From an uncultured Bacteroidia bacterium (GTDB lineage: Bacteria > Bacteroidota > Bacteroidia > NS11-12g > UBA9320), in NCBI GenBank assembly GCA_943846675.1, contig OX044357.1:1546010-1610009 (forward strand): a DNA stretch of 64,000 nt. The letters are read 5' to 3'. The notes under the pieces were generated by a model. It was given only the letters and a program-made list of their open reading frames with translations. It was not told where the DNA came from and ran no database searches. The first letter of the stretch is position 1. Every line of letters starts with the position of its first letter. Shown piece by piece: positions 1,703-19,386 of the stretch. A program made the translations under genes and the position numbers.

Positions 1703-1752
1703 AATGCTGAATTATAACGGTAACAATGAAAAACAAAAACAGTACCAATAAT

Positions 1753-2841
1753 CTAATTGGCTAACACTTTGGCACTGACATATAGTTTAACGATATGGTT
1801 GTCCGGATCGTTTGTATAGAGCGTAACTTCTTTTTGCGCTTGACCGGAAACAAACATAGAATCAAATTTAAGTAAGATGGTTTTAGACGCATTCGGTTGT
1901 AGCTCAGATTCAGTCAAATCAATTGTTGTACAACCACAGTGTGTTTCAACTTTTAGAATTTTAAGCACTGATTTTCCTGTATTGGATATGTTTACCTGAC
2001 GGGTAGCTGTGGCTCCTTCTTGCATGGTGCCAAAATCAAATTCCGTCGTAGATATTTTAAGCTTGGGTGCATTTTTTCTTTCCTTTTTGGACAGTTTTGA
2101 AAAGTCACTTTTGATGAAAAATGCCAGCTTTACAGCCTTAAGTGGAAATGACTTGTCATTCGTTTTAAACACAATTTCTGTGTTAACCAGTCCATAGTCT
2201 TTCACTTTTTCTGCGTCTATATGTATTACGACGGCCACGGACTCACCAGGATTAAGGGTTTGTTTGGGCATGTCATAGGTTACATATTCAGGTTTTCTTA
2301 AAACGCCGTTAAACTTTAATGGCAGATTGTACTCGTTTACAAAAAGGACCGTATCCGTGTAGGTGCCTGCGTTAATTATATCTCCTAAGGCAATGGTGTT
2401 TTTAGACTGTCTTATATACCCAAACTGACCTGGGTAAACTTTACTTAAGTCTTGTTCAACAGGTTCTTTAATGATGCCTTTAATGGTAAGTATTTTAGAC
2501 ATGATTACATTGTAATTCGCAAAAATTTCGATTGATTTATCTACTTCACCAGCCAAGTGGGTAGGGTCAAACGTTGCTGTTATGATGCCTTTTTGACCAG
2601 GTTTGATGGGGTGCTCTGGCCATGATGGTACCGTGCAGCCACAGCTTGCTTTGACATCTCGAATTTGAAAGTCGATTGGGCTGTTGTTGGTGAAAATATA
2701 CGTTGCGTTTATTTTTTGATCTCCAAACTTGACTGTTCCGAAGTTGTACTCTTCAGATTCAAATGGTATTTCACTGTCGTCAACTTGCGCAAAAGTGACT
2801 AAAGCAATGGTTGTAAACAAAAAGGTAAAAATGCTTTTCAT
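1753..2841 (-). CDS. secreted DUF1573-repeat protein (two SCGCT-motif Ig-like domains)
   Basis: 362 aa with a signal peptide and two copies of the DUF1573 signature (ASCGCTVPSWP...IKPGQKGIITATFD and ETHCGCTTIDL...NASKTILLKFD). These are typical of Bacteroidota DUF1573 proteins. Confidence 0.7.
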   Translation of the reverse strand: MKSIFTFLFTTIALVTFAQVDDSEIPFESEEYNFGTVKFGDQKINATYIFTNNSPIDFQIRDVKASCGCTVPSWPEHPIKPGQKGIITATFDPTHLAGEVDKSIEIFANYNVIMSKILTIKGIIKEPVEQDLSKVYPGQFGYIRQSKNTIALGDIINAGTYTDTVLFVNEYNLPLKFNGVLRKPEYVTYDMPKQTLNPGESVAVVIHIDAEKVKDYGLVNTEIVFKTNDKSFPLKAVKLAFFIKSDFSKLSKKERKNAPKLKISTTEFDFGTMQEGATATRQVNISNTGKSVLKILKVETHCGCTTIDLTESELQPNASKTILLKFDSMFVSGQAQKEVTLYTNDPDNHIVKLYVSAKVLAN

Positions 2842-2987
2842 ATGGAGAGGTAACGTGTATTAATGCGATTTGGTGTTATGTAATAGACAAATGTATTGTT
2901 AAAATGGTTGTACGAGGAGTATGAAGTATTAAGATGAAGATTTAACCTTGACAGAAATGCATTGCATTACTTACATTATGCGTCATT

Positions 2988-3075
2988 CAGGCAATAGGAA
3001 TTAGCGAATAGCCAATAGCGAATAGCGATTAGGAGTTAGCTGTTAGCTGTTAGCCAAAAAGAACAGAGAGTAAAG
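2988..3075. repeat. low-complexity intergenic repeat tract (AATAGCG / TTAGG / AGAGAATAGA units); related tract at 21090..21230
   Basis: aattagcgaatagccaatagcgaatagcgattaggagttagctgttagctgttagcc...agagaatagac shares 12- to 18-mers (attaggagttag, agccaatagcgattagg, aagagaatagaN) with 21090..21230. Confidence 0.6.
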
Positions 3076-3409
3076 AGAATAGACTTGATTATCCCTAGCA
3101 GGTAGGGGGAATCAGATTGTTATCGAACTTTTAAATCTGAGGTCTACAATCTATTTTGAGCGTTTTAAATAACACAGTAAAGAAATAATATTAAAAGATG
3201 GTAATAGTTATGAGAACATGATTAGTCTAACTACATTCTCACTATATCGGTGGCGCTTGAACATTGAAGTAGTTTCCAAAGACAAATGTAAAGATTTAGT
3301 AACTTGCCATAGTTAATGCAACAGAAGCTGCAACAGAACCAGAGCGGAATTTAGTGTTACTATATCTATTAAAATTTGTTAGTTTGCGTCAATATTAACG
3401 TAAAATCCA

Positions 3410-6394
3410 ATGCAAAAAACGTACTTATTTATTTTACTAGCATCTTTATGCTTTCTTTCCTTTGAAACACAAGCAACCGTAATATTTGTAGACTATAGTT
3501 CTTCGGGTACTAATACTGGTGCATCCTGGACCAATGCTTACACGAGTCTTCAGTCTGCTGTTACTAATGCGGTTAGCGGAGATGAAGTATGGGTAGCCGC
3601 AGGCACATACATTCCATCTGCATATCCAGTAGGGCGAACATCTACAGATATTCGAGAGTATTCTTTTTACCTTGAGTCTGGTGTGGAGTACTACGGAGGA
3701 TTTGCAGGTACAGAAACACTAAGATCTCAACGCGATTATGCGAATAATGCCACCGTTTTGAGTGGAAATATTACAGGTAACAACTGTTACCATGTTTTGG
3801 TATCGGCTAATGAAAGCTCTGTGGTTTTAGACGGTTTTACCGTTACCGCTGGATATGCCAACGGTGGTACAAACGCAACAATAAATGGTCAATCAGGTTT
3901 TTGGACTAATAATGGAGGTGGTGTTTTCACGATTAACACCACGATGACCGTAGAGAATTGTATCATATCCAATAACACAGCTGGTTATGGTGGTGCAATT
4001 CGAGGTGTAGGGGGTACCACAACACTTACAAATTGTACACTTACTGGTAATACTGGGACTGCTCATGCGGGTGCAATAGATATGGTTGGTACTCTAGTTG
4101 TAAGTGGCTGCACATTTACCAGTAACAAGACAGCTACTAGCAGCAACGGAAATGGGGGAGCAATAAAAATTTCTGGGGGTGTTGCTACAATTTCAAATAC
4201 ATCATTTATAAGTAATGTAGGAAGAATCGGTGGTGCCATACATCATTACAGTTCGCAACTAACCATATCAACGTCTACCTTTAGTAATAATTCCGCAACA
4301 AATCATGGTGGAGCTTTATATGCTAGTCATACAGCATTTACTGTAACGAAGTGTGTTTTTGATGGAAATACTGCTACAAACAATGGTGGGGGTATCTCCA
4401 CAGGTTGGGGAGCTACTATGACTCTCAATAACTCTGTATTTAGTGAAAACACCTCTGGGTCAAGTGGAGGAGCTATCTCCAATGATATGATTAATGGTTC
4501 AGCAATCAATTGTACGTTTTATGCGAATACTGCAGCTGTTAGGGGTGGTGCTTATTCTTCAGTTTCAAACAGTATCAATGGCAAGAACTGTGTGTTTTTT
4601 GGAAACAAAAAGGGTACAAGCACGAACGTATCAGGTGCAGATACGTATGGTGGATCATTCACCTATTCTTTAACGCAAAGCAATAGCAACTTCAGCAGTG
4701 GAACAGGTATTGTAAACAATCAAGACCCATTATTCATCAATGCAAGTGACCCAGATGGAGCAGATAATGTATGGATGACGGCAGATGATGGATTAAGTTT
4801 TTTTAGCAATTCTCCTGCTTACGGTGTAGGAACAAGCTCAGGCGCTCCTTCTACCGATATTACGGGTGCTTCACGAGCGTCATCTCCATCTATGGGAGCC
4901 TATGAAGGTTTTTCTTACACGCGGTATTTAGTAGATATTGACGCTACGGGCACCGGTGCAGGTACAAGTTGGACTAATGCCTATACAGGGCTTCAAGACG
5001 CTATAGATGCATCCTCAGTAGGGGATGAAATATGGGTCGCAGAAGGTACATATATACCCAATGTAATTCCTCAATTTCAGGTTACATCTACCGACAATAG
5101 ACATAAAACATTTGCCATAAACAAAAATATAGCAATTTATGGTGGATTTGATGGTACTGAATCCGTCCTATCGCAAAGGGACGCTAAATTAAACATTACT
5201 GTATTAAGCGGAGATCTTGGAACTATTGGTACAGTATCAGATAATTGCTTCCATGTTGTGATGACTGCTAATTTAAATTCAACTGCAATCATCGATGGAT
5301 TTACAATTCAAGATGGTAATGCAAACGGAGGTAACACAACAGATCAGTATGGTGGTAGAAACTTTGCAAGAGAACTAGGAGGGGGAATTGCTAGCAATTT
5401 TTCTTCACCTACTCTTTCCAATCTAATCATCAAAAACAATAGGGCAAAAATTGGAGCAGGTGTCAGTAACAGCGTTTCCAGTTCATATCTTATTAATTTA
5501 ACTTTCGTAGACAATATTGCTAATGAAAAAGGAGGGGGAGTAGCTAATATAACTACTGGATCTCCAAGTATTATTAATTGTGTTTTTAGTGGGAACCTAG
5601 CTGATGATTTTGGTGGTGGTATATACTCTGAAAACTCACCTACAATAACCAATTGCACCTTTTTCAATAACAAAGCAACTACCACTTCACAAGGCGGTGG
5701 TGGTGTATATGCAATAAATGCAGGAACTACTACGGTATCAAATTGTATATTTTTTGGAAATAAAATAGGCTCATCTACGACTAATGTTGGTTCAGATATT
5801 AAAAACGGTACTGGTCATACAACCACTGTAGACTACAGTATGGTACAACTTGCTAGCGGAAGTTATACCTCTGGAAACACCAATGCCCTCACATCTGCAA
5901 CCAGTATGGTCTATAACCAAGACCCATTATTCAGCGGTCATGGTGGTCCAGATGGAGTAGATAATGTATGGATGACTGAGGATGACGGACTCAGATTAAA
6001 TAGTAATAGCCCTGCAGTAGATGCGGGACTTAGTAGTGCCATAAGTGGGTATTCTACAGATATTGTAGGTACTGCTCGTGTGGTGAATACTAACGTAAAT
6101 ATGGGAGCTTATGAGGTTCTTTGTTCTGAAACGACTAAAACAATAACAGCAAATGTATGCGATAGCTACACCTCTCCAAGTGGAAAGACTTGGATAACAA
6201 GCAACACGTATTCAGATACGATAGCAAACACTGCGGGTTGTGATAGTGTTATCACGGTGAACCTTACGGTTCGCGATAAGACGACTGAAACGATAACAGC
6301 AAATGTATGCGATAGCTATACCTCTCCAAGTGGAAAAACTTGGACAACAAGCAACACGTATTCAGATACCATTCCAAACGACTGCGGGTTGTGA
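3410..6394 (+). CDS. N-terminal ORF piece of the frameshifted giant beta-helix protein (signal peptide, two Pmp-like beta-helix blocks, 2-Cys modules)
   Basis: 994-aa ORF. It carries repeated GGAI / CTFTSN / CVFDGN / SVFSEN motifs and two copies of the block-ending motif NQDPLF...DGxDNVWMTxDDGL...MGAYE. It terminates at CGL*, where the paralog reads on as NTAGCDS. Confidence 0.7.
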   Translation: MQKTYLFILLASLCFLSFETQATVIFVDYSSSGTNTGASWTNAYTSLQSAVTNAVSGDEVWVAAGTYIPSAYPVGRTSTDIREYSFYLESGVEYYGGFAGTETLRSQRDYANNATVLSGNITGNNCYHVLVSANESSVVLDGFTVTAGYANGGTNATINGQSGFWTNNGGGVFTINTTMTVENCIISNNTAGYGGAIRGVGGTTTLTNCTLTGNTGTAHAGAIDMVGTLVVSGCTFTSNKTATSSNGNGGAIKISGGVATISNTSFISNVGRIGGAIHHYSSQLTISTSTFSNNSATNHGGALYASHTAFTVTKCVFDGNTATNNGGGISTGWGATMTLNNSVFSENTSGSSGGAISNDMINGSAINCTFYANTAAVRGGAYSSVSNSINGKNCVFFGNKKGTSTNVSGADTYGGSFTYSLTQSNSNFSSGTGIVNNQDPLFINASDPDGADNVWMTADDGLSFFSNSPAYGVGTSSGAPSTDITGASRASSPSMGAYEGFSYTRYLVDIDATGTGAGTSWTNAYTGLQDAIDASSVGDEIWVAEGTYIPNVIPQFQVTSTDNRHKTFAINKNIAIYGGFDGTESVLSQRDAKLNITVLSGDLGTIGTVSDNCFHVVMTANLNSTAIIDGFTIQDGNANGGNTTDQYGGRNFARELGGGIASNFSSPTLSNLIIKNNRAKIGAGVSNSVSSSYLINLTFVDNIANEKGGGVANITTGSPSIINCVFSGNLADDFGGGIYSENSPTITNCTFFNNKATTTSQGGGGVYAINAGTTTVSNCIFFGNKIGSSTTNVGSDIKNGTGHTTTVDYSMVQLASGSYTSGNTNALTSATSMVYNQDPLFSGHGGPDGVDNVWMTEDDGLRLNSNSPAVDAGLSSAISGYSTDIVGTARVVNTNVNMGAYEVLCSETTKTITANVCDSYTSPSGKTWITSNTYSDTIANTAGCDSVITVNLTVRDKTTETITANVCDSYTSPSGKTWTTSNTYSDTIPNDCGL

Positions 6395-6699
6395 TAGTGT
6401 TATCACGGTGAACCTTACGGTGAGATATAAAAGTTCCTTCTCGTTCGCAGAAACGGTATATGAAACCTTTACATCGCCAAGCGGAAAAACATGGACAAAT
6501 TCAGGCACATATTTAGACACAATACCTAATGACGTTAATTGTGACAGCATCATAACGGTCGATTTGACTGTAATCAACAAGTTATTTGTCGATACAGATG
6601 GTTCATCAGGAACAGGAAAATCATGGGGGACTTCAATGAAAACACCTAGATGACGCCATCAAAGTAGCTAATGCAACGGGCAATCATGCTGAAATATGG

Positions 6700-9048
6700 G
6701 TGCGCAAGGGCATGTATTATCCTGGCGGACAATCGAGCAGCAATCGAGATTCAGCGTTCCTAATTACCAATCCAAATGTTGAATTATTAGGAGGTTTTTC
6801 TGGAACAGAAACAGAGCCTGGTCAACGTAATCAAACGGCTAACCCAACCATATTGTGTGGTGATATTGGCAAAGCAAACGATTCCTCGGATAATGCATAT
6901 CACGTATTGATTATTGCACCAAACGGATCAGACATCGGACCTAATTTTAAACTAGATGGGTTAACCTTTAAAAACGGTAACGCTGACGGGAACTCAAAAT
7001 ACACCTACGAAAATAGAGATGTATATCAATCAGAGGGTGGCTCAATAGTTATTCTGGGTAGTGGTAAGTCTGGCCAAGAGATTAGTCCAACGATTACCAA
7101 TTGTCATTTTGAAGGCAACTACGGCGATTATGGCTCGATTTACATACGCGTGCCTAATGGTAAGTCTTTTGCAACCATTAGCCATTGTACGTTTAAAAAC
7201 AACCATTCAATTTATGGCGCTATCTTTAACGATGGTCAAGCAGGTGAAGTATCTCCAAACATTGTAAACTGTGCCTTTGATGGCAACACAAGTGCCACTT
7301 CGGGTGCAGCGATATACAACTATGGTTATGGAGGCAAATGCTCTCCTACAATCACAAGTTGTGTGTTTAACAGCAACAGTGCTAGTTCAATGGGAGGAGC
7401 AATCTATAACACGGGTTATGGTGGAACATCCAATCCAGTGATCACAAACGCTACCTTCCATGCAAACGCAGCTGGTTCTCATGCAGGAGCGATGTATAGC
7501 TTTGGTAACAGCGGAACATGCCAACCTAAGGTGACCAACTCTATCTTTTACAAAAACACAAAAGGTGGAGATGTGGACCATAAGTTTAGTGAGTTCTATA
7601 ACTATGCAGCGTATCCATACATAAAAAATAGTTCGATGCAACGTGCAAGCTCAACATACACAGCAAGCACATTCAACAGCTTAAACAGCGGAACAAACAA
7701 CATCTTCCAGACCAATCCAAACTTTGAGGCGATTGCCGATGGCAATGGTGCGGATGATGTTTGGAGAACAGGAGATGATGGATTGAGATTATCTTCCTCA
7801 AGTACCAACTTGTTAAACGGTGGAACCAATACAGGTGCCCCAACTGCGGATATCTTAGGAAATCAGCGTATGGGAACAACCGACATGGGTGCTTACGAGT
7901 ATGTCAACTGTGGCTTAAATGTTAAACTAGCTACTTCGGTTACCACTCATACAGCAACGCAAAGTGTTGTGGATGGTAATTTTGTATGCTACTGTAACAG
8001 CGACAATGAATTACTCTTGGCTCTTGACACCAATGGAACTGGGGCGGTGATTACACCTAGTCAGGTAAAACTATACATTGGCAATCCATCAACCTTGAGT
8101 TACAACTCTGCTGGCGGTATGATAACCAACACGGCTGGTGGTGTGATACTAGAAAGACGTTGGGATGTGGAACCAACGACTCAACCAACTTCACCAGTAA
8201 CGGTTCGTTACTTCTACACCAACGACAACTACGACGACATTGTAACGGCTATGGCTGGATTAACATCGCCTACAACCATTACTTCGCCAAGTCAACTACA
8301 GTTTTACAAGGTAACAGGCGGCTCATCGGCAACCTTCCCGAACCCACATGATACGGGTGTAACGGGTATTGTACTGACCAACGGAACAACAGCCAGCACA
8401 ACAGTGTGGGTTAATGGAACACATGGTGTACAAGACCATACAGCAGAATACCTAGTAAGCACGTTCTCCGGTGGTGGAGGCGGAGGCGGGGGTGGATCTA
8501 GCCCACTACCAGTGGAACTGATCCAGTTCGAAGCAAGCCCAGCAGCTAGTCATACAGCAGACCTTACATGGAAGACCGCATCAGAGCTAAACAACTCACA
8601 TTTTGTAGTTGAACGTAGCTATGATGGTAGAGACTTCCAGGCAGCAGCAATTGTTCAAGGAAACGGTACCACACAAAACGTGATTACCTACAACCACAAC
8701 GACAATACGATTGATCTAGCACAAAACACTGTGTTCTATCGATTACGTCAGGTGGACTTTGATGGCACCACGGCTTACTCACCAGTAAGACGAGTAGACT
8801 TTGAAGGCAGCATCATACCAAACAGCGTAACGCTTTATCCAAACCCAACAAAAGGAACGGTTACGGTTAGCTTTACAGACGATGAGGCTGAAAGTCATGC
8901 GATTAAAGTAATTGACAACCTCGGAAGAGAGCTGTACAAGCAAACCTTCGACGGACAAGCCATAGAGCTTGATTTGTCGAGCCAAGCAACGGGCATCTAC
9001 TTTATCATTTTAGATTCTGGTGAATCCTTTAAAGTGATTAAACAGTAG
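6700..9048 (+). CDS. C-terminal ORF piece of the same frameshifted gene (beta-helix block, FN3/Ig-like domain, T9SS sorting domain); about 99% identical to 15486..17834
   Basis: 782-aa translation is nearly identical to the last 782 aa of the 2133-aa paralog. It ends in a G9 linker plus LYPNPTKGTVTVSF...IYFIILDSGESFKVIKQ, a T9SS type-A CTD. Confidence 0.7.
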   Translation: MRKGMYYPGGQSSSNRDSAFLITNPNVELLGGFSGTETEPGQRNQTANPTILCGDIGKANDSSDNAYHVLIIAPNGSDIGPNFKLDGLTFKNGNADGNSKYTYENRDVYQSEGGSIVILGSGKSGQEISPTITNCHFEGNYGDYGSIYIRVPNGKSFATISHCTFKNNHSIYGAIFNDGQAGEVSPNIVNCAFDGNTSATSGAAIYNYGYGGKCSPTITSCVFNSNSASSMGGAIYNTGYGGTSNPVITNATFHANAAGSHAGAMYSFGNSGTCQPKVTNSIFYKNTKGGDVDHKFSEFYNYAAYPYIKNSSMQRASSTYTASTFNSLNSGTNNIFQTNPNFEAIADGNGADDVWRTGDDGLRLSSSSTNLLNGGTNTGAPTADILGNQRMGTTDMGAYEYVNCGLNVKLATSVTTHTATQSVVDGNFVCYCNSDNELLLALDTNGTGAVITPSQVKLYIGNPSTLSYNSAGGMITNTAGGVILERRWDVEPTTQPTSPVTVRYFYTNDNYDDIVTAMAGLTSPTTITSPSQLQFYKVTGGSSATFPNPHDTGVTGIVLTNGTTASTTVWVNGTHGVQDHTAEYLVSTFSGGGGGGGGGSSPLPVELIQFEASPAASHTADLTWKTASELNNSHFVVERSYDGRDFQAAAIVQGNGTTQNVITYNHNDNTIDLAQNTVFYRLRQVDFDGTTAYSPVRRVDFEGSIIPNSVTLYPNPTKGTVTVSFTDDEAESHAIKVIDNLGRELYKQTFDGQAIELDLSSQATGIYFIILDSGESFKVIKQ

Positions 9049-9091
9049 TGAGAAAGTATCGTATTACTACACAAATACAATAAGAGAAGGC

Positions 9092-9122
9092 CATTCGTTT
9101 TACGGATGGCTTTTTTGTTGTT
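9092..9122 (+). terminator. rho-independent terminator downstream of giant gene 1 (identical copy at 17878..17908)
   Basis: ggccattcgttttacggatggcc is a stem-loop with one U-G wobble, followed by tttttt, about 45 nt after the stop codon. Confidence 0.6.
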
Positions 9123-9319
9123 CAATTGATTTGAAAATATAAAAAGTGAAGTAAACAAGATATCGGGTTCTGTTGCATTAACTTCCCCTGAATCCAGAAG
9201 TAACCAAATTCGATGTTTATTAAGCTGCTAAAGACTTAAATGTAGCAAACCAGTTTGACTTTGAATCTTTGATTTGGTCCTTTCTGTTGATGCAATCTAA
9301 AGGACAGAACCATAAATAA

Positions 9320-9469
9320 ACTTTTTCGCTTAATGACATAACAGTTGACCATGTGATACCATTGAGTGATATAAGCGACTATGATTTAAAGAAAGGGGCA
9401 CACACATGGGACAACGTTAAAACGTGTTGCATGGGTTGTAATACCCTTAAAGGGACTGACTTTGTATAA
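9320..9469 (+). pseudogene. remnant C-terminal fragment of an HNH endonuclease (no start codon)
   Basis: Translation is TFSLNDITVDHVIPLSDISDYDLKKGAHTWDNVKTCCMGCNTLKGTDFV*. It keeps the HNH signature (DH..P, N, CxxCN..KG) but is only about 49 codons long, with an upstream in-frame stop and no ATG. Confidence 0.5.
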
Positions 9470-9936
9470 ATATACACCCCAGCCCCCATTTCAAACATCC
9501 ATAGACAAGGCATGAGAAACGCAGCAATCTGTTATTTACACACGTGCAAGTTCAAAAAAAAGCCAAGTAGAGAAAGTCCAGTAAAGTAAAGGTCTAAAAG
9601 CGGTTATTGTCGACTATATGTAACCACATTAAAAAACAACTCCTAGATTATTGAAGAATTGCTTTGCAATTTGAGTGGTAACTAACAAAGATAAACTGCC
9701 GCAAATCCCTTGACAGGTAAGGGTTCGTTGAAATTTTAGACACAAAAAACCCCGACTTGGTACAGCCAGGGAATTTCGTTTAGCTCCGAAGAGCTAGTAG
9801 GGGGAATCAGAACGTTATCGAACTTTTTTGACGGTACAAAGGCCCGGCTATAAAATGTTGGGTAACGTTTAGGTTGGTTAGCCATGCATATTAGCCCTGT
9901 AAGGTGCTATGCACTAATTAAATTGTTATTTCAACT

Positions 9937-11336: not shown

Positions 11337-11432
11337 CCCTTTGGTAACGTTTAGCAAATACAATTATTGTTTTTTGTAAATTGCTGGTATTAAAAGAATA
11401 GAGTTTTTAATAAACATCAATTTTTTTTACTT

Positions 11433-14400
11433 TTGGATTTGAGATTTCAAAAATTCAAGTCGCAAAATTTAAGTAGTATTATGAAATCATTTTACGTAGC
11501 TCGGCTAACAGCTGTACTTTTTTCCATTATTTGTTTTTCTTTTTCAAACACCGTAGCACAGTCATCAGGTGTGGTCAGCACGCTCGCTGGTAGTGGTGCA
11601 TCTGGCTATACAGATGGTACAGGGACATCGGCTCAGTTTTCCTATCCTATAGGAGTAGCGGTCGATGGCGCTGGAAATGTGTATGTAGCGGATCAGAATA
11701 ACCACCGCATTCGAAAAATAACTACATCAGGTGTGGTCAGCACGCTCGCTGGTAGTGGTACATCTGGCAATGCAGATGGTACAGGGACATCGGCTCAGTT
11801 TAACAATCCTTATGGAGTAGCGGTCGATGGCGCTGGAAATGTGTATGTAGCGGATTACAATAACCACCGCATTCGAAAAATAACTGCATCAGGTGTGGTC
11901 AGCACGCTCGCTGGTAGTACTCAGGGCAATACAGATGGTACAGGGACATCGGCTCAGTTTAACTCTCCTAGAGGAGTAGCGGTCGATGGCGCTGGAAATG
12001 TGTATGTAGCGGATGAGTATAACCACCGCATTCGAAAAATAACTGCATCAGGTGTGGTCGGCACCCTCGCTGGTAGTGCATCTGGCTATACAGATGGTAC
12101 AGGGACATCGGCTAAGTTTAAAAATCCTTATGGAGTAGCGGTCGATGGCGCTGGAAATGTGTATGTAGCGGATAGGTCAAACCACCGCATTCGAAAAATA
12201 ACTACATCAGGTGTGGTCAGCACGCTCGCTGGTAGTTCTCAGGGCTATACAGATGGTACAGGGACATCGGCTCAGTTTTACTATCCTAGCGGAGTAGCGG
12301 TCGATAGCGCTGGAAATGTGTATGTAGCGGATAAGGATAACCACCGCATTCGAAAAATAACTACATCAGGTGTGGTCAGCACGCTCGCTGGTAGTGGTAC
12401 ATCTGGCTATGCAGATGGTACAGGGACATCGGCTAAGTTTAACTATCCTTTCGGAGTAGCGGTCGATGGCGCTGGAAATGTGTATGTAGCGGATTACGTT
12501 AACCACCGCATTCGAAAAATAGGTCAGGCAACTTGCACAACACCCACAACACCATCACTAAGTGCATCACCTGATTCAATATGTAATGGGAATTCCAGTA
12601 CCTTGACCGTATCTGGATCAAAGAATGCTGCTTCAACTTGGAAGGTATATTCAGGTGGATGTGGAACTGGATTAGTTGATTCAATTACTGGAACTGGGAC
12701 TACATTATCCGTGTCACCAACCTCTACAACGAACTATTATGTCAGAGAAGAAGGTTGTGTAACAGCTGGAAGTTGCGGAACGACTGTTGTTACAGTGACA
12801 GCAGCTTCTTATAACACTATTACGGTAACGGTATGCGATACGTACACCTCTCCAAGTGGCAGGCATACCTGGTTTGTAACAGGAATATATAAAGACACGA
12901 TTCCAAACGCAGCAGGTTGCGATAGTATTCTAACAATAAACTTAACGGTAATTGCAACACCAATAGTTACTGTCAGCACGCTCGCTGGTAGTACATATGG
13001 CTATACAGATGGTACAGGGACATCGGCTAAGTTTTACAATCCTACTGGAGTAGCGGTCGATGGCGCTGGAAATGTGTATGTAGCGGATCGGTATAACCAC
13101 CGCATTCGAAAAATAACTACATCAGGTGTGGTCAGCACGCTCGCTGGTAGTGGTACATCTGGCAATGCAGATGGTACAGGGACATCGGCTCAGTTTTCCT
13201 ATCCTAGCGGAGTAGCGGTCGATAGCGCTGGAAATGTGTTTGTAGCGGATCGCAATAACCACCGCATTCGAAAAATAACTGCATCAGGTGTGGTCAGCAC
13301 GCTCGCTGGTAGTACTCAGGGCTATACAGATGGTACAGGGACATCGGCTAAGTTTGACTCACCTACAGGAGTAGCGGTCGATGGCGCTGGAAATGTGTAT
13401 GTAGCGGATCTGTATAACCACCGCATTCGAAAAATAACTGCATCAGGTGTGGTCAGCACCCTCGCTGGTAGTGCATCTGGCTATACAGATGGTACAGGGA
13501 CATCGGCTAAGTTTAAAAATCCTACAGGAGTAGCGGTCGATGGCGCTGGAAATGTGTATGTAGCGGATTACAATAACCACGGCATTCGAAAAATAACTAC
13601 ATCAGGTGTGGTCAGCACGCTCGCTGGTATTGCATATGGCTATACAGATGGTACAGGGACATCGGCTAAGTTTAAAAATCCTTATGGAGTAGCGGTCGAT
13701 GGCGCTGGAAATGTGTATGTAGCGGATCGGGATAACCACCGCATTCGAAAAATAACTACATCAGGTGTGGTCAGCACGCTCGCTGGTAGTTCTCAGGGCT
13801 ATACAGATGGTACAGGGACATCGGCTCAGTTTGCCTATCCTTTCGGAGTAGCGGTCGATGGTACTGGAAATGTGTATGTAGCGGATGAGTCAAACCACCG
13901 CATTCGAAAAATAACGTTAAGTGCTGGTAGTGCTGAAACGACTGAAACGATAACAGCAAATGTATGCGATACGTACACCTCTCCAAGTGGCAGGCATACC
14001 TGGTTTGTAACAGGAATATATAAAGACACGATTCCAAACGCAGCAGGTTGCGATAGTATTCTAACAATAAACTTAACGGTAATTGCAACACCAATAGTTA
14101 CTGTCAGCACGCTCGCTGGTAGTACTCAGGGCAATACAGATGGTACAGGGACATCGGCTCAGTTTTCCTATCCTACAGGAGTAGCGGTCGATGGCGCTGG
14201 AAATGTGTATGTAGCGGATCAGGATAACCACCGCATTCGAAAAATAACTACATCAGGTGTGGTCAGCACGCTCGCTGGTAGTGGTACACCTGGCTATACA
14301 GATGGTACAGGGACATCGGCTAAGTTTTACTTACCTATCGGAATAGCGGTCGATGGCGCTGGAAATGTGTATGTAGCGGATAGGTCAAACCACCGCATTC

Positions 14401-17400
14401 GAAAAATAACTGCATCAGGTGTGGTCAGCACCCTCGCTGGTAGTACTCAGGGCTATGCAGATGGTACAGGGACATCGGCTAAGTTTAACGTTCCTTTCGG
14501 AGTAGCGGTCGATGGCGCTGGAAATGTGTATGTAGCGGATTACAATAACCACCGCATTCGAAAAATAACTACATCAGGTGTGGTCAGCACGCTCGCTGGT
14601 AGTACATATGGCTATACAGATGGTACAGGGACATCGGCTCAGTTTGCCTATCCTTATGGAGTAGCGGTCGATGGCGCTGGAAATGTGTATGTAGCGGATA
14701 GGTCAAACCACCGCATTCGAAAAATAACTGCATCAGGTGTGGTCAGCACGCTCGCTGGTAGTTCTCAGGGCTATACAGATGGTACAGGGACATCGGCTAA
14801 GTTTTACTATCCTAGCGGAGTAGCGGTCGATGGCGCTGGAAATGTGTATGTAGCGGATCGGTCAAACCACCGCATTCGAAAAATAACTGCATCAGGTGTG
14901 GTCAGCACCCTCGCTGGTAGTACATATGGCTATACAGATGGTACAGGGACATCGGCTAAGTTTTACTTACCTACAGGAGTAGCGGTCGATGGCGCTGGAA
15001 ATGTGTATGTAGCGGATTACGTTAACCACCGCATTCGAAAAATAACGTTAAGTGCTGGTAGTGCTGAAACAACAGAAACGATAACAGCAAATGTATGCGA
15101 TAGCTATACCTCTCCAAGTGGAAAAACTTGGACAACAAGCAACACGTATTCAGATACGATTCCAAACACTGCGGGTTGTGATAGTGTTATCACGGTGAAC
15201 CTTACGGTGAGATATAAAAGTTCCTTCTCGTTCGCAGAAACGGTATATGAAACCTTTACATCGCCAAGCGGAAAAACATGGACAAATTCAGGCACATATT
15301 TAGACACAATACCTAATGACGTTAATTGTGACAGCATCATAACGGTCGATTTGACTGTAATCAACAAGTTATTTGTCGATACAGATGGTTCATCAGGAAC
15401 AGGAAAATCATGGGGGACTTCAATGAAAAACCTAGATGACGCCATCAAAGTAGCTAATGCAACGGGCAATCATGCTGAAATATGGGTGCGCAAGGGCATG
15501 TATTATCCTGGCGGACAATCGAGCAGCAATCGAGATTCAGCGTTCCTAATTACCAATCCAAATGTTGAATTATTAGGAGGTTTTTCTGGAACAGAGACAG
15601 AGCCTGGTCAACGAAATCAAACGGCCAATCCAACCATATTGTGTGGAGATATCGGTACAACAAACGATTCCTCTGACAATGTATACCACGTATTGATTAT
15701 TGCACCAAACGGATCAGACATCGGACCTAATTTTAAACTAGATGGGTTAACCTTTAAAAACGGTAACGCTGACGGGAACTCAAAATACACCTACGAAAAT
15801 AGAGATGTATATCAATCAGAGGGTGGCTCAATAGTTATTCTGGGTAGTGGTAAGTCTGGTCAAGAGATTAGTCCAACGATTACCAATTGTCATTTTGAAG
15901 GAAATTATGGCGATTATGGCTCGATTTACATACGCGTGCCTAATGGTAAGTCTTTTGCAACCATTAGCCATTGTACGTTTAAAAACAACCATTCAATTTA
16001 TGGCGCTATCTTTAACGATGGTCAAGCAGGTGAAGTATCTCCAAACATTGTAAACTGTGCCTTTGATGGCAACACAAGTGCCACTTCGGGTGCAGCGATA
16101 TACAACTATGGTTATGGAGGCAAATGCTCTCCTACAATCACAAGTTGTGTGTTTAACAGCAACAGTGCTAGTTCAATGGGAGGAGCAATCTATAACACGG
16201 GTTATGGTGGAACATCCAATCCAGTGATCACAAACGCTACCTTCCATGCAAACGCAGCTGGTTCTCATGCAGGAGCGATGTATAGCTTTGGTAACAGCGG
16301 AACATGCCAACCTAAGGTGACCAACTCTATCTTTTACAAAAACACAAAAGGTGGAGATGATGACCATAAGTTTAGTGAGTTCTATAACTATGCAGCGTAT
16401 CCATACATAAAAAATAGTTCGATGCAACGTGCAAGCTCAACATACACAGCAAGCACATTCAACAGCTTAAATAGTGGAACAAACAACATCTTCCAGACCA
16501 ATCCAAACTTTGAGGCGATTGCCGATGGCAATGGTGCGGATGATGTTTGGAGAACAGGAGATGATGGATTGAGATTATCTTCCTCAAGTACCAACTTGTT
16601 AAACGGTGGAACCAATACAGGTGCCCCAACTGCGGATATCTTAGGAAATCAGCGTATGGGAACAACCGACATGGGTGCTTACGAGTATGTCAACTGTGGC
16701 TTAAATGTTAAACTAGCTACTTCGGTTACCACTCATACAGCAACGCAAAGTGTTGTGGATGGTAATTTTGTATGCTACTGTAACAGCGACAATGAATTAC
16801 TCTTGGCTCTTGACACCAATGGAACTGGGGCGGTGATTACACCTAGTCAGGTAAAACTATACATTGGCAATCCATCAACCTTGAGTTACAACTCTGCTGG
16901 CGGTATGATAACCAACACGGCTGGTGGTGTGATACTAGAAAGACGTTGGGATGTGGAACCAACGACTCAACCAACTTCACCAGTAACGGTTCGTTACTTC
17001 TACACCAACGACAACTACGACGACATTGTAACGGCTATGGCTGGATTAACATCGCCTACAACCATTACTTCGCCAAGTCAACTACAGTTTTACAAGGTAA
17101 CAGGCGGCTCATCGGCAACCTTCCCGAACCCACATGATACGGGTGTAACGGGTATTGTACTGACCAACGGAACAACAGCCAGCACAACAGTGTGGGTTAA
17201 TGGAACACATGGTGTACAAGACCATACAGCAGAATACCTAGTAAGCACGTTCTCCGGTGGTGGAGGCGGAGGCGGGGGTGGATCTAGCCCACTACCAGTG
17301 GAACTGATCCAGTTCGAAGCAAGCCCAGCAGCTAGTCATACAGCAGACCTTACATGGAAGACCGCATCAGAGCTAAACAACTCACATTTTGTAGTTGAAC

Positions 17401-17834
17401 GTAGCTATGATGGTAGAGACTTCCAGGCAGCAGCAATTGTTCAAGGAAACGGTACCACACAAAACGTGATTACCTACAACCACAACGACAATACGATTGA
17501 TCTAGCACAAAACACTGTGTTCTATCGATTACGTCAGGTGGACTTTGATGGCACCACGGCTTACTCACCAGTAAGACGAGTAGACTTTGAAGGCAGCATC
17601 ATACCAAACAGCGTAACGCTTTATCCAAACCCAACAAAAGGAACGGTTACGGTTAGCTTTACAGACGATGAGGCTGAAAGTCATGCGATTAAAGTAATTG
17701 ACAACCTCGGAAGAGAGCTGTACAAGCAAACCTTCGACGGACAAGCCATAGAGCTTGATTTGTCGAGCCAAGCAACGGGTATCTACTTTATCATTTTAGA
17801 TTCTGGTGAATCCTTTAAAGTGATTAAACAGTAG
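11433..17834 (+). CDS. giant T9SS-secreted surface protein: NHL-repeat arrays + 2-Cys modules + Pmp-like beta-helix + FN3/Ig-like + T9SS type-A CTD
   Basis: 2133 aa with a signal peptide. It has about 19 copies of a 47-aa NHL repeat (SGVVSTLAGS..GYTDGTGTSA.F..P.GVAVDGAGNVYVAD..NHRIRKIT) in three blocks separated by a Cys-rich Ig-like segment and 2-Cys TITANVCD[ST]YTSPSG modules. The C-terminal 930 aa match 6125..9048 apart from the two single-base insertions in that copy, and end in LYPNP...IYFIILD...KVIKQ. Confidence 0.85.
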   Translation: MDLRFQKFKSQNLSSIMKSFYVARLTAVLFSIICFSFSNTVAQSSGVVSTLAGSGASGYTDGTGTSAQFSYPIGVAVDGAGNVYVADQNNHRIRKITTSGVVSTLAGSGTSGNADGTGTSAQFNNPYGVAVDGAGNVYVADYNNHRIRKITASGVVSTLAGSTQGNTDGTGTSAQFNSPRGVAVDGAGNVYVADEYNHRIRKITASGVVGTLAGSASGYTDGTGTSAKFKNPYGVAVDGAGNVYVADRSNHRIRKITTSGVVSTLAGSSQGYTDGTGTSAQFYYPSGVAVDSAGNVYVADKDNHRIRKITTSGVVSTLAGSGTSGYADGTGTSAKFNYPFGVAVDGAGNVYVADYVNHRIRKIGQATCTTPTTPSLSASPDSICNGNSSTLTVSGSKNAASTWKVYSGGCGTGLVDSITGTGTTLSVSPTSTTNYYVREEGCVTAGSCGTTVVTVTAASYNTITVTVCDTYTSPSGRHTWFVTGIYKDTIPNAAGCDSILTINLTVIATPIVTVSTLAGSTYGYTDGTGTSAKFYNPTGVAVDGAGNVYVADRYNHRIRKITTSGVVSTLAGSGTSGNADGTGTSAQFSYPSGVAVDSAGNVFVADRNNHRIRKITASGVVSTLAGSTQGYTDGTGTSAKFDSPTGVAVDGAGNVYVADLYNHRIRKITASGVVSTLAGSASGYTDGTGTSAKFKNPTGVAVDGAGNVYVADYNNHGIRKITTSGVVSTLAGIAYGYTDGTGTSAKFKNPYGVAVDGAGNVYVADRDNHRIRKITTSGVVSTLAGSSQGYTDGTGTSAQFAYPFGVAVDGTGNVYVADESNHRIRKITLSAGSAETTETITANVCDTYTSPSGRHTWFVTGIYKDTIPNAAGCDSILTINLTVIATPIVTVSTLAGSTQGNTDGTGTSAQFSYPTGVAVDGAGNVYVADQDNHRIRKITTSGVVSTLAGSGTPGYTDGTGTSAKFYLPIGIAVDGAGNVYVADRSNHRIRKITASGVVSTLAGSTQGYADGTGTSAKFNVPFGVAVDGAGNVYVADYNNHRIRKITTSGVVSTLAGSTYGYTDGTGTSAQFAYPYGVAVDGAGNVYVADRSNHRIRKITASGVVSTLAGSSQGYTDGTGTSAKFYYPSGVAVDGAGNVYVADRSNHRIRKITASGVVSTLAGSTYGYTDGTGTSAKFYLPTGVAVDGAGNVYVADYVNHRIRKITLSAGSAETTETITANVCDSYTSPSGKTWTTSNTYSDTIPNTAGCDSVITVNLTVRYKSSFSFAETVYETFTSPSGKTWTNSGTYLDTIPNDVNCDSIITVDLTVINKLFVDTDGSSGTGKSWGTSMKNLDDAIKVANATGNHAEIWVRKGMYYPGGQSSSNRDSAFLITNPNVELLGGFSGTETEPGQRNQTANPTILCGDIGTTNDSSDNVYHVLIIAPNGSDIGPNFKLDGLTFKNGNADGNSKYTYENRDVYQSEGGSIVILGSGKSGQEISPTITNCHFEGNYGDYGSIYIRVPNGKSFATISHCTFKNNHSIYGAIFNDGQAGEVSPNIVNCAFDGNTSATSGAAIYNYGYGGKCSPTITSCVFNSNSASSMGGAIYNTGYGGTSNPVITNATFHANAAGSHAGAMYSFGNSGTCQPKVTNSIFYKNTKGGDDDHKFSEFYNYAAYPYIKNSSMQRASSTYTASTFNSLNSGTNNIFQTNPNFEAIADGNGADDVWRTGDDGLRLSSSSTNLLNGGTNTGAPTADILGNQRMGTTDMGAYEYVNCGLNVKLATSVTTHTATQSVVDGNFVCYCNSDNELLLALDTNGTGAVITPSQVKLYIGNPSTLSYNSAGGMITNTAGGVILERRWDVEPTTQPTSPVTVRYFYTNDNYDDIVTAMAGLTSPTTITSPSQLQFYKVTGGSSATFPNPHDTGVTGIVLTNGTTASTTVWVNGTHGVQDHTAEYLVSTFSGGGGGGGGGSSPLPVELIQFEASPAASHTADLTWKTASELNNSHFVVERSYDGRDFQAAAIVQGNGTTQNVITYNHNDNTIDLAQNTVFYRLRQVDFDGTTAYSPVRRVDFEGSIIPNSVTLYPNPTKGTVTVSFTDDEAESHAIKVIDNLGRELYKQTFDGQAIELDLSSQATGIYFIILDSGESFKVIKQ

Positions 17835-17877
17835 TGAGAAAGTATCGTATTACTACACAAATACAATAAGAGAAGGC

Positions 17878-18043: not shown

Positions 18044-19015
18044 TTGTATATTCGCTTTATGGAGTTCAAACCCCTTGAATCATATCTATCTGATCCTAGT
18101 CCTTACACAAGCCGTAGACTCGTGGAACAGTTGGGTGAGGAAAAGTTTACCATTAATGACATAGGCGTTAGTTCACGGGTGTTTACCCATTGGCGATCAA
18201 ATGGGTTAATCCCTTATATGGAGGATGGTTCATGGGTAAAATTGAATGTGTTTCAATTTATCTGGGTACAGATAATTAAAGACTTGCGTGCGTTTAACTT
18301 TTCTTTAAAGCAGATTGTCAAAGTACGCGCTTCGCTATTTGAGTCCTTCGAAGGGTTTGCTACGGCGGATTTGTTTGATAAAAAAGGAAAGATAACCAAG
18401 GTATTGCGAGCACAGCTTAAAAAGATGTTCGACAATCACCAAGAGATAATTGAAGGCTTAGAAAGTAGTTTCGAGTCGGATTCAAATTCAATAAAAGATT
18501 TCCTTGAGGCTTTTCAAATCCCATTGCTCCTATCACTTAGCTTGAACGTATTGTTCCGTGCAATGGATCACACGCTACTGATTAGGCCAGATGGTCGAGT
18601 TGATTATACTTCAGAAACGCAAGACGAGACATTGGTCAATTACTTGTCCGAGCACGATGCGGAGTCCATCTTGGTGCTTCCACTCAAAAAGTACATTCTG
18701 GTGCTGGTATCGACAAAAAAACTAGAAGATAAAGTTGGTAATATGGCCCTGGTTACCCAAGTTGAAATGGAAGTTTTACAAGCCATGCGGCAGGGAACGC
18801 TATCCGAACTTAGAATAATTTTTGACCCCAAAGACCAACACGCAGATTTGGTGTATACCTATAAAGGGGTTGTACCCGAAAATGAAATGAGTAAAGTTTT
18901 AGATCGTTTTCGGCATAAAAAACACGTTCAATTGTCTATGAAAACCAATGACGGTAAAACGGTATCTTTCGAATACCAAGACCGAAAACGGGTCCATAAA
19001 TTAAATGGAAATTAA
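18044..19015 (+). CDS. MerR/excisionase-like winged-HTH protein with a C-terminal domain of unknown function
   Basis: 323 aa. The N-terminus (TINDIGVSSRVFTHWRSNGLIPY...VKLNVFQFIWVQIIKDLRAFNFSLKQI) matches the MerR/Xis HTH_17 pattern. The remaining roughly 230 aa have no recognisable motif. It sits immediately upstream of the iterons and the serine recombinase. Confidence 0.5.
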   Translation: MYIRFMEFKPLESYLSDPSPYTSRRLVEQLGEEKFTINDIGVSSRVFTHWRSNGLIPYMEDGSWVKLNVFQFIWVQIIKDLRAFNFSLKQIVKVRASLFESFEGFATADLFDKKGKITKVLRAQLKKMFDNHQEIIEGLESSFESDSNSIKDFLEAFQIPLLLSLSLNVLFRAMDHTLLIRPDGRVDYTSETQDETLVNYLSEHDAESILVLPLKKYILVLVSTKKLEDKVGNMALVTQVEMEVLQAMRQGTLSELRIIFDPKDQHADLVYTYKGVVPENEMSKVLDRFRHKKHVQLSMKTNDGKTVSFEYQDRKRVHKLNGN

Positions 19016-19379: not shown

Positions 19380-19386
19380 AAGAATA

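What the first reader, a model, noticed from the sequence alone, without database searches (positions are those of the whole stretch)
3410..6120. Chlamydia Pmp-like GGA[ILV]/FxxN parallel beta-helix repeats in a Bacteroidota T9SS cargo protein
The N-terminal ~900 aa of gene 1 and the shared C-terminal block (15430..16400 and 6700..7600) contain regularly spaced GGAI, GGAL, GGGI and AGAI motifs. They alternate with CTFTSN, CVFDGN, SVFSEN, CTFYAN, CVFFGN and similar motifs. This matches the polymorphic-membrane-protein (Pmp) repeat signature (GGA[ILV] and FxxN) of chlamydial autotransporter adhesins. Each beta-helix block ends with a conserved cap motif, NQDPLF...DGxDNVWMTxDDGL...SxSP...DIxGxxR...MGAYE, which occurs three times. 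A Pmp-like passenger fused to a T9SS sorting domain instead of an autotransporter barrel would be an interesting case of convergent deployment.
Basis: partly seen in the sequence, partly recalled or inferred. Interest (0 to 1): 0.6.

Follow-up and report, generated by a model that had tools for sequence, protein, structure and literature searches.

The report
Common beta-helix T9SS surface protein
The flagged stretch encodes the first two of three beta-helix modules of an 1878-residue secreted surface protein of a Bacteroidia bacterium. The Pmp-like motifs are real, but this module joined to a T9SS tail is a large, already catalogued family, so the finding is ordinary.

Summary
Residues 160-425 and 650-810 of the 3410.. 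product, and the shared block, carry 25-30-residue coils of FxxN followed by GG[AG][ILV].

- **Motif enrichment:** far above shuffles (GGA[ILV] 5 observed vs 0.2 expected).
- **HMM hits:** PF02415 scores 43 bits (cut-off 20.6) and TIGR01376 scores 39 bits (cut-off 15).
- **The "cap":** it is the NCBIfam choice-of-anchor Q domain, NF041518, at 47-63 bits (cut-off 25).

One correction is needed. ORF 3410..6394 is cut short by two single extra bases, at 6380 and 6643. Five of ten other assemblies of the same locus carry one uninterrupted 1878-aa gene (3410..9048). Its order is signal peptide, three beta-helix modules, three Cys modules, an unknown domain, an FN3-like domain and a T9SS type A tail.

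The protein is not a chlamydial Pmp, because it lacks the PMP_M domain and the autotransporter barrel. The module-plus-T9SS-tail design is not unusual: more than 2000 homologues were found, many already named.

In passing: the genes form a modular paralogue family. They sit in roughly 7-11 kb cassettes bounded by tRNA-Glu-like sites, next to a large serine recombinase.

The parts
3410..9048 (+). Gene 1, true extent. It encodes an 1878-aa T9SS cargo protein. In the window it reads as ORFs 3410..6394, 6303..6653 and 6700..9048, because of two spurious extra bases.
   Evidence: An uninterrupted 1878-aa ORF is present in 5 of 10 other assemblies of the same locus. The restored product differs from that of L038 by 1 residue.
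3410..3475 (+). Sec-type signal peptide, MQKTYLFILLASLCFLSFETQA.
   Evidence: Read from the translation. It is identical in all four paralogues of the related MAG. No predictor was run.
3476..4912 (+). Beta-helix module H1: an N-cap, 10 Pmp-like coils and a choice-of-anchor Q cap (4718-4906).
4916..6124 (+). Beta-helix module H2: an N-cap, about 5 coils using GGG[IV], and a choice-of-anchor Q cap (5915-6115).
   Evidence: hhalign against the H1 family profile: probability 100%, E = 2e-75. NF041518 best stretch at residues 862-903. PF02415 alone is sub-threshold at 17.3 bits.
6143..6572 (+). Three 43-residue two-cysteine modules (6143-6271, 6293-6422, 6444-6572). They belong to no Pfam or NCBIfam family.
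   Evidence: Their number varies from 2 to 8 among paralogues.
6380..6380 (+). Spurious extra base (first frameshift).
   Evidence: The local sequence is the union of two paralogue variants. It is absent from the intact assemblies.
6643..6643 (+). Spurious extra base (second frameshift).
6582..7899 (+). Beta-helix module H3: an N-cap, 6 degenerate coils and a cap (7708-7899). It is part of the 99%-identical block shared with gene 3.
   Evidence: hhalign of the gene 3 copy against the H1 family profile: probability 100%, E = 1.2e-57. PF02415 at 19.1 bits and NF041518 at 23.6 bits, both just under their cut-offs.
7903..8469 (+). Domain X, of unknown fold, followed by a Gly9 linker at 8470-8496.
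   Evidence: Only 14 homologues were found, nearly all directly before a PF18962 tail. The AlphaFold2 model is unreliable, with pLDDT 55.8.
8506..8826 (+). Pre-tail beta-rich domain, FN3-like by eye. No family hit.
   Evidence: This is an inference only.
8827..9048 (+). T9SS type A C-terminal sorting domain and stop codon.
   Evidence: PF18962 at 46.9 bits (cut-off 27). TIGR04183 at 44.2 bits (cut-off 23).
11481..17834 (+). Gene 3, a paralogous cargo. Order: signal peptide, three six-repeat NHL propellers separated by Cys modules, H3, X, then the T9SS tail. Positions 15069-17955 are 99% identical to 6281-9169.
   Evidence: An intact 2117-aa gene is present in L029.
3105..3128 (+). Left cassette boundary site, GGGGGAATCAGATTGTTATCGAAC, 282 nt (site end to ATG) upstream of the gene 1 ATG.
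9800..9823 (+). Junction site between the gene 1 cassette and the gene 3 cassette, GGGGGAATCAGAACGTTATCGAAC.
18059..19015 (+). 318-aa ORF conserved downstream of the cargo genes. There is only a weak MerR-like hint (E = 0.052).
19387..21015 (+). Large serine recombinase (Resolvase plus Recombinase domains).
   Evidence: PF00239 at 91.2 bits and PF07508 at 27.3 bits. NCBIfam XisF/Ccr-like hits.
20942..20965 (+). Right cassette boundary, TGGTAGCCCCTAGGGGAATCGAAC. This is the reverse complement of the 3' end of tRNA-Glu, present here as a remnant.
   Evidence: The same 24 nt form the 3' end of an intact tRNA-Glu(ttc) in L003 and L025.

Best explanation
Gene 1 (3410..9048 once two spurious bases are removed) encodes an 1878-residue protein that the type IX secretion system exports to the cell surface of a Bacteroidia bacterium.

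A Sec signal peptide takes the protein into the periplasm. The C-terminal type A sorting domain then hands it to the T9SS. There the tail is normally cleaved, and the protein is either attached to the surface or released. These steps follow from established knowledge of T9SS type A cargo and were not tested here.

The body of the protein holds three complete right-handed parallel beta-helix modules. Each module has an N-terminal cap (GxSW...GDEIWVxxGTYxP), then 5-10 coils of 25-30 residues, then a C-terminal choice-of-anchor Q cap (NQDPLF...DIxGxxR...MGAYE). In each coil, the Asn of FxxN is predicted to form a ladder and GG[AG][ILV] a tight turn.

The helices most likely act as rigid, non-catalytic rods that display binding surfaces. 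That makes the protein an adhesin or ligand-binding scaffold, and this is an inference. It uses the same repeat class as chlamydial Pmps, with a different anchor. It is a new sequence in a large family that is already annotated.
For: Shown:
- Motif enrichment over shuffles.
- PF02415, TIGR01376, NF041518, PF18962 and TIGR04183 all score above their curated cut-offs. All three NCBIfam models hit the single intact 1878-aa polypeptide from L038.
- The H1 model has pLDDT 95.5 and pTM 0.94, with regular strand triplets.
- H2 and H3 are full-length homologues of H1: E = 2e-75 and 1.2e-57.
- The gene is intact in 5 of 10 other assemblies.
- The family is large and already named.
- A separate study found that independent prediction methods agree on the beta-solenoid fold for PF02415.

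Supporting the non-catalytic reading:
- In the 49-sequence family alignment, the invariant and near-invariant columns lie in the two caps. The exceptions are the Gly and Asn positions of the coils.
- No glycoside hydrolase or polysaccharide lyase family is hit.

Other T9SS cargo lies in the window. This includes a T9SS-dependent M36 peptidase scoring 916 bits against a cut-off of 885.
Against: - There is no experimental evidence for secretion, surface attachment or any ligand.
- Most structural neighbours in the PDB are carbohydrate-active enzymes or phage depolymerases, so a catalytic role is not excluded.
- H2 and H3 taken alone are below the Pfam and NCBIfam cut-offs.
- No T9SS machinery gene lies in the window.
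- The signal peptide was judged by eye.
- Domain X and the Cys modules remain uncharacterised.
Confidence: 0.8

Rival explanations
1. The beta-helix modules are enzymes acting on polysaccharides (a lyase, hydrolase or epimerase) secreted by T9SS, not adhesins.
Against: - Sequence identity to these enzymes is only 6-19%.
- No CAZy-type Pfam family is hit at E <= 0.1.
- Conserved columns of the family lie in the caps and in the structural Gly/Asn positions. They do not form a groove cluster.
- Three tandem helices joined to NHL propellers in the paralogues look like a display architecture.
Confidence: 0.15
2. Gene 1 is a decaying pseudogene. The Pmp-like part (3410..6394) is no longer joined to any secretion tail.
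For: In the window, two frameshifts separate the N-terminal ORF from the tail-bearing ORF.
Against: - The same locus carries one uninterrupted 1878-aa ORF in L034, L036, L038, L039 and L043. Where the gene is broken in other assemblies, the breaks lie at different positions.
- The restored product differs from that of L038 by 1 residue.
- Each extra base sits where paralogues differ, and the local sequence reads as the union of both variants. This pattern is expected from consensus errors in a repeat.
Confidence: 0.04
3. The protein is a true member of the chlamydial Pmp family, acquired by horizontal transfer, whose autotransporter barrel was replaced by a T9SS tail.
For: PF02415 and TIGR01376 score above their cut-offs.
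Against: - There is no PMP_M (PF07548) hit and no autotransporter (PF03797) hit at E <= 0.1.
- The nearest homologues are from Bacteroidia, Saprospiraceae, Planctomycetota, Verrucomicrobiota, Lentisphaerota and others. None of the listed homologues is labelled as chlamydial where a source name is given.
- The N-cap and the choice-of-anchor Q cap are hallmarks of that broad family.
- PF02415 is known to be mostly non-chlamydial.
Confidence: 0.01

Closest known systems
NCBIfam NF041518 choice-of-anchor Q domain-containing, right-handed parallel beta-helix proteins with a T9SS type A tail (for example P0093 and P0095)
   Same: - The same N-cap, Pmp-like coils, C-terminal cap and PF18962 tail.
- 30-58% identity over H1.
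- The same HMMs score above their cut-offs.
   Different: - This protein strings three such modules together with Cys modules and a rare domain X.
- No sequence in the 5.8-billion-protein set is closer than 58% to H1 outside its own species.
Chlamydial polymorphic membrane proteins (PmpA-I, PmpD; PF02415 plus PF07548 plus PF03797)
   Same: - Alternating FxxN and GGA[ILV] motifs in beta-helix coils of about 25 residues.
- Surface display.
- Expansion into a paralogous, variable family (PMC11166332; PMC10715098).
   Different: - No PMP_M middle domain and no type V autotransporter barrel.
- Export by a T9SS tail.
- Discrete capped modules instead of one long passenger.
- A Bacteroidia host.
Rhombotarget A of Acinetobacter (PDB 9cdu/9cdv)
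   Same: - A sequence-level relative of the H1 family profile, E = 1.5e-8.
- The same kind of beta-helix placed in front of a C-terminal sorting signal.
   Different: It is sorted by a different C-terminal signal, GlyGly-CTERM/rhombosortase (from my own knowledge), and has a single helix module.
Beta-helical surface adhesins and autotransporter passengers (Bordetella Vag8, PDB 7akv; S. pneumoniae PfbA, PDB 3zpp/4mr0)
   Different: Different anchors (a type V barrel; an LPXTG-type cell wall anchor). There is no detectable sequence relationship.
Small cargo-carrying integrative elements at tRNA genes, such as tycheposons (bioRxiv 10.1101/2020.12.28.424599)
   Same: This comparison concerns the side observation only.
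- Site-specific recombinase, including large serine recombinases in a minority of elements.
- Partial tRNA at the boundary.
- Successive integrations side by side.
- Cargo of adaptive genes (compared).
   Different: - Here the cargo is one giant T9SS surface-protein gene.
- No replication genes were seen.
- The host is a Bacteroidia bacterium.
- Mobility was not demonstrated.

Membership tests
Chlamydial Pmp family | Repeated GGA[ILV] and FxxN tetrapeptides (PF02415 / TIGR01376) | tested here: met
   PF02415 scores 43.3 bits against 20.6. TIGR01376 scores 39.4 bits against 15. Motif counts exceed shuffles.
Chlamydial Pmp family | PMP_M middle domain (PF07548) | tested here: not met
   No hit at E <= 0.1 in any of the three ORF products.
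Chlamydial Pmp family | C-terminal type V autotransporter beta-barrel (PF03797) | tested here: not met
   No hit at E <= 0.1. The C-terminus is instead a T9SS sorting domain.
Chlamydial Pmp family | Beta-helical passenger | tested here: met
Choice-of-anchor Q domain-containing proteins (NF041518) | HMM match above the curated cut-off | tested here: met
   46.7 bits in the window ORF and 63.2 bits in the intact 1878-aa protein, against a cut-off of 25. The third copy scores 23.6 bits, just below the cut-off.
Choice-of-anchor Q domain-containing proteins (NF041518) | Homologues occur with different C-terminal anchors | tested here: met
   About 36 of the 120 listed hits carry PF18962; the rest do not. 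They come from Planctomycetota, Verrucomicrobiota, Lentisphaerota, Desulfobacterota and other phyla. Rhombotarget A is a sequence relative.
T9SS type A cargo | Type A C-terminal sorting domain at the extreme C-terminus | tested here: met
   TIGR04183 scores 44.2 bits against 23. PF18962 scores 46.9 bits against 27. The match covers residues 712-782 of 782, or 1808-1878 of 1878 in the intact protein.
T9SS type A cargo | N-terminal Sec signal peptide in the same polypeptide | tested here: inconclusive
   A signal-like N-terminus was read by eye. The same polypeptide is confirmed only through the intact copies in other assemblies. No signal-peptide predictor was available.
T9SS type A cargo | T9SS machinery in the genome, and secretion that depends on it | not testable with these tools
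   No machinery gene lies in the window. There is indirect support from three other proteins in the window that bear the tail, including an equivalog-level T9SS-dependent M36 peptidase.
Right-handed parallel beta-helix (pectate-lyase-like) fold | Three-stranded coils stacked into a right-handed helix | tested here: met
Polysaccharide lyase / glycoside hydrolase beta-helix enzymes | Match to a catalytic family model | tested here: not met
   No such Pfam family was hit at E <= 0.1 to 1. A catalytic-residue analysis was not done.
Site-specific integrative element (side observation) | Recombinase gene at one end, and conserved end sequences in different chromosomal contexts | tested here: met
   A large serine recombinase is present. 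The right end ...CCGCTTTGGTAG and the left end GGGGAATCAGA..GTTATCGAAC are identical in at least three contexts. One of these is an intact tRNA-Glu.
Site-specific integrative element (side observation) | Empty target site, or an excised circular junction | not tested

The most novel reading that the evidence does not exclude
The Pmp-like T9SS cargo genes of this species may be the payload of small (about 7-11 kb) integrative cassettes driven by a large serine recombinase.

On this reading the cassettes insert at sites resembling the 3' end of tRNA-Glu and pile up in tandem. The gene 1 cassette has no recombinase and lies next to the gene 3 cassette, which has one.

The cassettes would also exchange modules (beta-helices, Cys modules, NHL propellers) through their near-identical 5' and 3' ends. 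The result would be a mobile, recombining repertoire of giant surface proteins, a functional analogue of the polymorphism of chlamydial Pmps.
Probability: 0.3. Interest if true: 0.45.

Novelty: new member of a known kind. Interest (0 to 1): 0.2.

Why it matters
For the finding as posed, it matters little. It documents one more member of a very large, already annotated family of capped beta-helix surface proteins that bacteria place in front of whichever sorting signal they use. No member of the T9SS branch has a known ligand.

The practical lessons are two:
- The window's ORF calls here are wrong, because two consensus errors split one 1878-aa gene.
- A hit to the "Chlamydia" Pmp repeat model says nothing about chlamydial ancestry.

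The side observation could be of modest interest to people studying strain-level surface variation in uncultured Bacteroidia. It concerns a modular paralogue family in recombinase-associated cassettes with tRNA-Glu-like ends, arranged differently between closely related strains. It needs read-level confirmation.

Tried and rejected
- **Exact look-up of the 994-aa ORF product:** not on record. This is explained later by the frameshift artefact.
- **Sequence search of the PDB with the single protein:** only one weak hit. The family profile added Rhombotarget A.
- **Domain X (7903-8619):** only 14 homologues. The AlphaFold2 model on the shallow alignment had pLDDT 55.8, which is too poor for a fold search.
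- **The afdb50 fold library:** not available.
- **Pfam at relaxed thresholds:** nothing found for the 43-residue Cys module. Only a sub-threshold MerR_1 hint (E = 0.052) for the 318-aa ORF. Sub-threshold matches for the Cys region (Phage_TTP_11), domain X (CBM_3) and the pre-tail domain (CttA_N) were disregarded.
- **Literature search for characterised T9SS beta-helix adhesins:** nothing directly relevant.
- **Pseudogene hypothesis:** rejected.
- **Chance or low-complexity origin of the motifs:** rejected.
- **tRNA scan of the window:** found none. The tRNA-Glu-like 24-mer at 20942-20965 is only a remnant.
Full report
**1. What is at the coordinates**

The region 3410-6120 lies inside ORF 3410..6394 (994 aa). 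Its translation starts with a signal-peptide-like MQKTYLFILLASLCFLSFETQA. It then contains two similar blocks, each ending in ...MGAYE.

Two further ORFs matter. They are 6700..9048 (782 aa) and 11433..17834 (2133 aa from the upstream TTG; the called gene starts at the ATG at 11481 and encodes 2117 aa). These two share a nearly identical C-terminal part.

**2. The motif observation is real**

In residues 1-910, motif counts far exceed composition-preserving shuffles:
- GGA[ILV]: 5 observed, shuffle mean 0.21.
- The relaxed [GA]G[AG][ILVM]: 12 observed, mean 1.0.
- FxxN: 15 observed, mean 4.0.

Anchored on FxxN, the sequence falls into coils of 25-30 residues. Each reads FxxN, then 4-9 residues, then GG[AG][ILV], then 8-12 residues, then a hydrophobic-x-N-C-[TV] strand. 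There are ten coils in module H1, about five in H2 and six in H3.

Pfam PF02415 scores 43.3 bits (cut-off 20.6, four stretches). NCBIfam TIGR01376 scores 39.4 bits (cut-off 15).

Scanned one module at a time, only H1 passes: 46.2 bits, against 17.3 for H2 and 19.1 for H3. This reflects the motifs. Canonical GGA[ILV] is concentrated in H1, H2 uses GGG[IV], and H3 is degenerate.

It lies at 4718-4906, 5915-6115 and 7708-7899, with a fourth copy in gene 3.

**3. The fold**

I aligned 48 homologues to residues 23-501. AlphaFold2 gave pLDDT 95.5 and pTM 0.94, with regular triplets of short strands.

- Foldseek against the PDB returned only right-handed parallel beta-helix proteins. Examples are lacto-N-biosidase, Pel9A, PL6 lyases and Rhombotarget A.

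AlphaFold2 can over-predict beta-solenoids for repeats. For PF02415, however, a dedicated study reported that four independent methods agree.

H2 and H3 are full-length homologues of the H1 family profile: hhalign probability 100%, E = 2e-75 and 1.2e-57. The protein therefore holds three complete, separately capped beta-helix modules.

**4. The gene is longer than the window's ORF suggests**

Positions 6281-9169 are a 99%-identical copy of 15069-17955. The only length differences are two extra single bases, at 6380 and 6643. Removing them yields one open frame, 3410..9048, of 1878 aa.

Both extra bases sit where paralogues differ by a substitution, and the window reads as the union of the two variants:
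- AAC-GAC-TGC, against AAC-ACT-GCG or AAC-GAT-GCG.
- AAAACACC, against AAAAACC or AAAACCC.

This is the pattern of a consensus error in a repeat.

The decisive test came from looking up the neighbouring gene 1753..2841 in public assemblies, which returned ten copies of the same locus. Five (L034, L036, L038, L039, L043) carry one uninterrupted 1878-aa gene. The other five are broken at other positions.

The L038 product differs from my restored product by one residue. In that intact polypeptide, NF041518 (63.2 bits), TIGR04183 (42.3 bits) and TIGR01376 (41.4 bits) all score above their cut-offs. The Pmp-like helices and the T9SS tail are therefore truly one protein.

**5. Architecture**

The order is:
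1. Signal peptide.
2. H1.
3. H2.
4. Three 43-residue two-cysteine modules.
5. H3.
6. Domain X.
7. A Gly9 linker.
8. A small beta-rich domain.
9. The T9SS type A sorting domain (PF18962 46.9 bits; TIGR04183 44.2 bits).

Domain X has only 14 detectable homologues, nearly all directly before a T9SS tail, and it did not model well.

**6. How it most likely works**

*Shown:*
- A capped beta-helix architecture.
- A T9SS type A tail at the extreme C-terminus.
- A signal-like N-terminus.
- Other tail-bearing proteins nearby. These include an equivalog-level T9SS-dependent M36 peptidase (916 bits against 885) and an M4 peptidase.

*Inferred from established knowledge of T9SS type A cargo:* Sec export, recognition of the tail by the T9SS, tail cleavage, and surface attachment or release.

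*Inferred for function:* the helices are rigid, non-catalytic display rods, acting as an adhesin or binding scaffold. Two results support this.
- The near-invariant columns of the family alignment lie in the two caps. The exceptions are the Gly and Asn positions of the coils.
- No glycoside hydrolase or lyase family is hit.

An enzymatic role remains possible, since most solved neighbours are enzymes. I give it about 15%.

**7. Comparison with what is known**

The family is very large. More than 2000 proteins reached E <= 0.001 among only 8000 scored candidates.
- About 36 of the 120 listed carry PF18962.
- At least four carry both PF02415 and PF18962.
- Source names include "choice-of-anchor Q domain-containing protein", "right-handed parallel beta-helix repeat-containing protein", "T9SS type A sorting domain-containing protein" and "predicted outer membrane repeat protein".

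Relatives occur in many phyla and in a methanogen. The family profile also detects Rhombotarget A at the sequence level, E = 1.5e-8.

The literature already notes that under a third of PF02415 proteins are chlamydial (PMC11166332). It also notes that FxxN/GGA[ILV] beta-helices occur in other bacteria, archaea and eukaryotes (PMC10715098).

Against the chlamydial Pmp family, two defining features were tested and not met: PMP_M and the autotransporter barrel. The protein works like a Pmp passenger but is not a Pmp. It is a member of the choice-of-anchor Q beta-helix class with a T9SS tail. "Convergent deployment" is not needed to explain it. One repeat class is simply combined with many anchors.

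**8. Things found on the way**

The closest genome is a MAG, "uncultured Bacteroidia bacterium AE_MB266". It is about 98% identical at the nucleotide level but not colinear with the window.

The MAG has four paralogues with the same signal peptide and the same C-terminus, and variable middles of 2-8 Cys modules and 0-1 NHL propellers. Gene 3 of the window has three propellers and no H1 or H2. In L001, the gene 1 N-terminus is joined to a gene 3-like C-terminal half.

A 318-aa ORF and a large serine recombinase (PF00239 plus PF07508) follow the cargo gene in several copies.

The cassette boundaries are conserved.
- The left end is always (G/A)TAG|GGGGAATCAGA(AC/TT)GTTATCGAAC.
- The right end is always ...CCGCTTTGGTAG|.
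- In L003 and L025, the sequence after the right end is the rest of an intact tRNA-Glu(ttc).
- In the window, that sequence is an 18-nt tRNA-Glu remnant followed by ruvB.
- In a third context it is an unrelated sequence that resembles the left end.

In the window, one cassette (3105-9800, gene 1, no recombinase) abuts a second (9800-20965; DUF6150 gene, a 185-aa ORF, gene 3, the 318-aa ORF, recombinase). This resembles tandem accretion of small integrative elements at tRNA genes, as described for tycheposons. Mobility was not shown, and some differences between assemblies could be chimeric joins across the 3-6 kb repeats.

**9. Verdict**

- The gene is a new member of a known and abundant kind.
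- Interest is low (0.2).
- The cassette organisation is the only part that might repay further work.

Noticed in passing
window 6380 and 6643: Two single extra bases split one 1878-aa gene into three ORFs. Each sits where paralogues differ, and the sequence reads as the union of both variants. Other assemblies of the locus are intact, or are broken at other positions, so these look like consensus errors of a long-read-style assembly.
   Followed up: yes
window 6281-9169 vs 15069-17955: A 2.9 kb direct repeat, 99% identical (25 mismatches, 13 of them clustered in 6810-6900). It covers the C-terminal halves of genes 1 and 3 plus 121 nt beyond the stop codon. The mismatch clustering suggests patchy gene conversion.
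   Followed up: partly
window 3105-3128, 9800-9823, 20942-20965; L001-L004, L020-L043: The cargo genes lie in cassettes of about 7-11 kb with conserved ends. The right end is a remnant of the 3' end of tRNA-Glu, and it forms part of an intact tRNA-Glu in L003 and L025. A large serine recombinase lies at the right end. Cassettes occur in at least three chromosomal contexts, and two lie in tandem in the window.
   Followed up: partly
window 18059-19015 and 19387-21015: A conserved gene pair lies downstream of the cargo genes. The first is a 318-aa ORF of unknown family with only a sub-threshold MerR_1 hint. After a 47-aa ORF called in other assemblies comes a 542-aa large serine recombinase. The recombinase is truncated or absent in some copies (L002, L004, L024, L027).
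   Followed up: partly
L001 9693-19736; L037 and L038 (locus coordinates 1-3800): Closely related strains or assemblies differ in arrangement. L001 fuses the gene 1 N-terminal half to a gene 3-like C-terminal half. In L038, gene 1 is followed by the 318-aa ORF and the flank of another site. In L037 it is followed by an IS and an FG-GAP/HYR T9SS protein. These could be real recombination or chimeric assembly.
   Followed up: partly
window 6143-6572, 12834-, 13965-, 15096-15420: A 43-residue module with two cysteines (ITANVCDSYTSPSGKTW...GCDSVITVNLTV) matches no Pfam or NCBIfam family. It varies from 2 to 8 copies among paralogues and acts as the joint between the larger domains.
   Followed up: partly
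window 7903-8469: Domain X lies between the third helix and the Gly9 linker. Only 14 homologues were found in 5.8 billion proteins, nearly all directly before a T9SS tail. The AlphaFold2 model is unreliable (pLDDT 55.8).
   Followed up: partly
window 11593-15057: Gene 3 has 18 NHL repeats, arranged as three six-repeat propellers. They are encoded by 159/162-nt units, many 85-94% identical at the DNA level. This points to recent internal duplication, and it makes the region an assembly hazard.
   Followed up: partly
window 9937-10272 (-): A small secreted-looking DUF6150 protein (103.6 bits) made of VDAAYKAD-type repeats. It lies just inside the second cassette, next to an uncharacterised 185-aa ORF (10806-11363, minus strand).
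   Followed up: no
window 1753-2841 (-), 30191-33748 (-), 59749-63243 (+): Other surface or secreted proteins lie nearby. One is a DUF1573/HYDIN-like Ig protein that also matches choice-of-anchor D and OS_HP2. Another is an M4 peptidase with PKD domains and a T9SS tail. The third is an equivalog-level T9SS-dependent M36 peptidase.
   Followed up: partly
PDB 7w5z chain U2: The H1 family profile matches a 3634-aa eukaryotic "transmembrane protein, putative" in a solved complex at E = 5.6e-19. This is another example of this repeat class far from Chlamydia.
   Followed up: no
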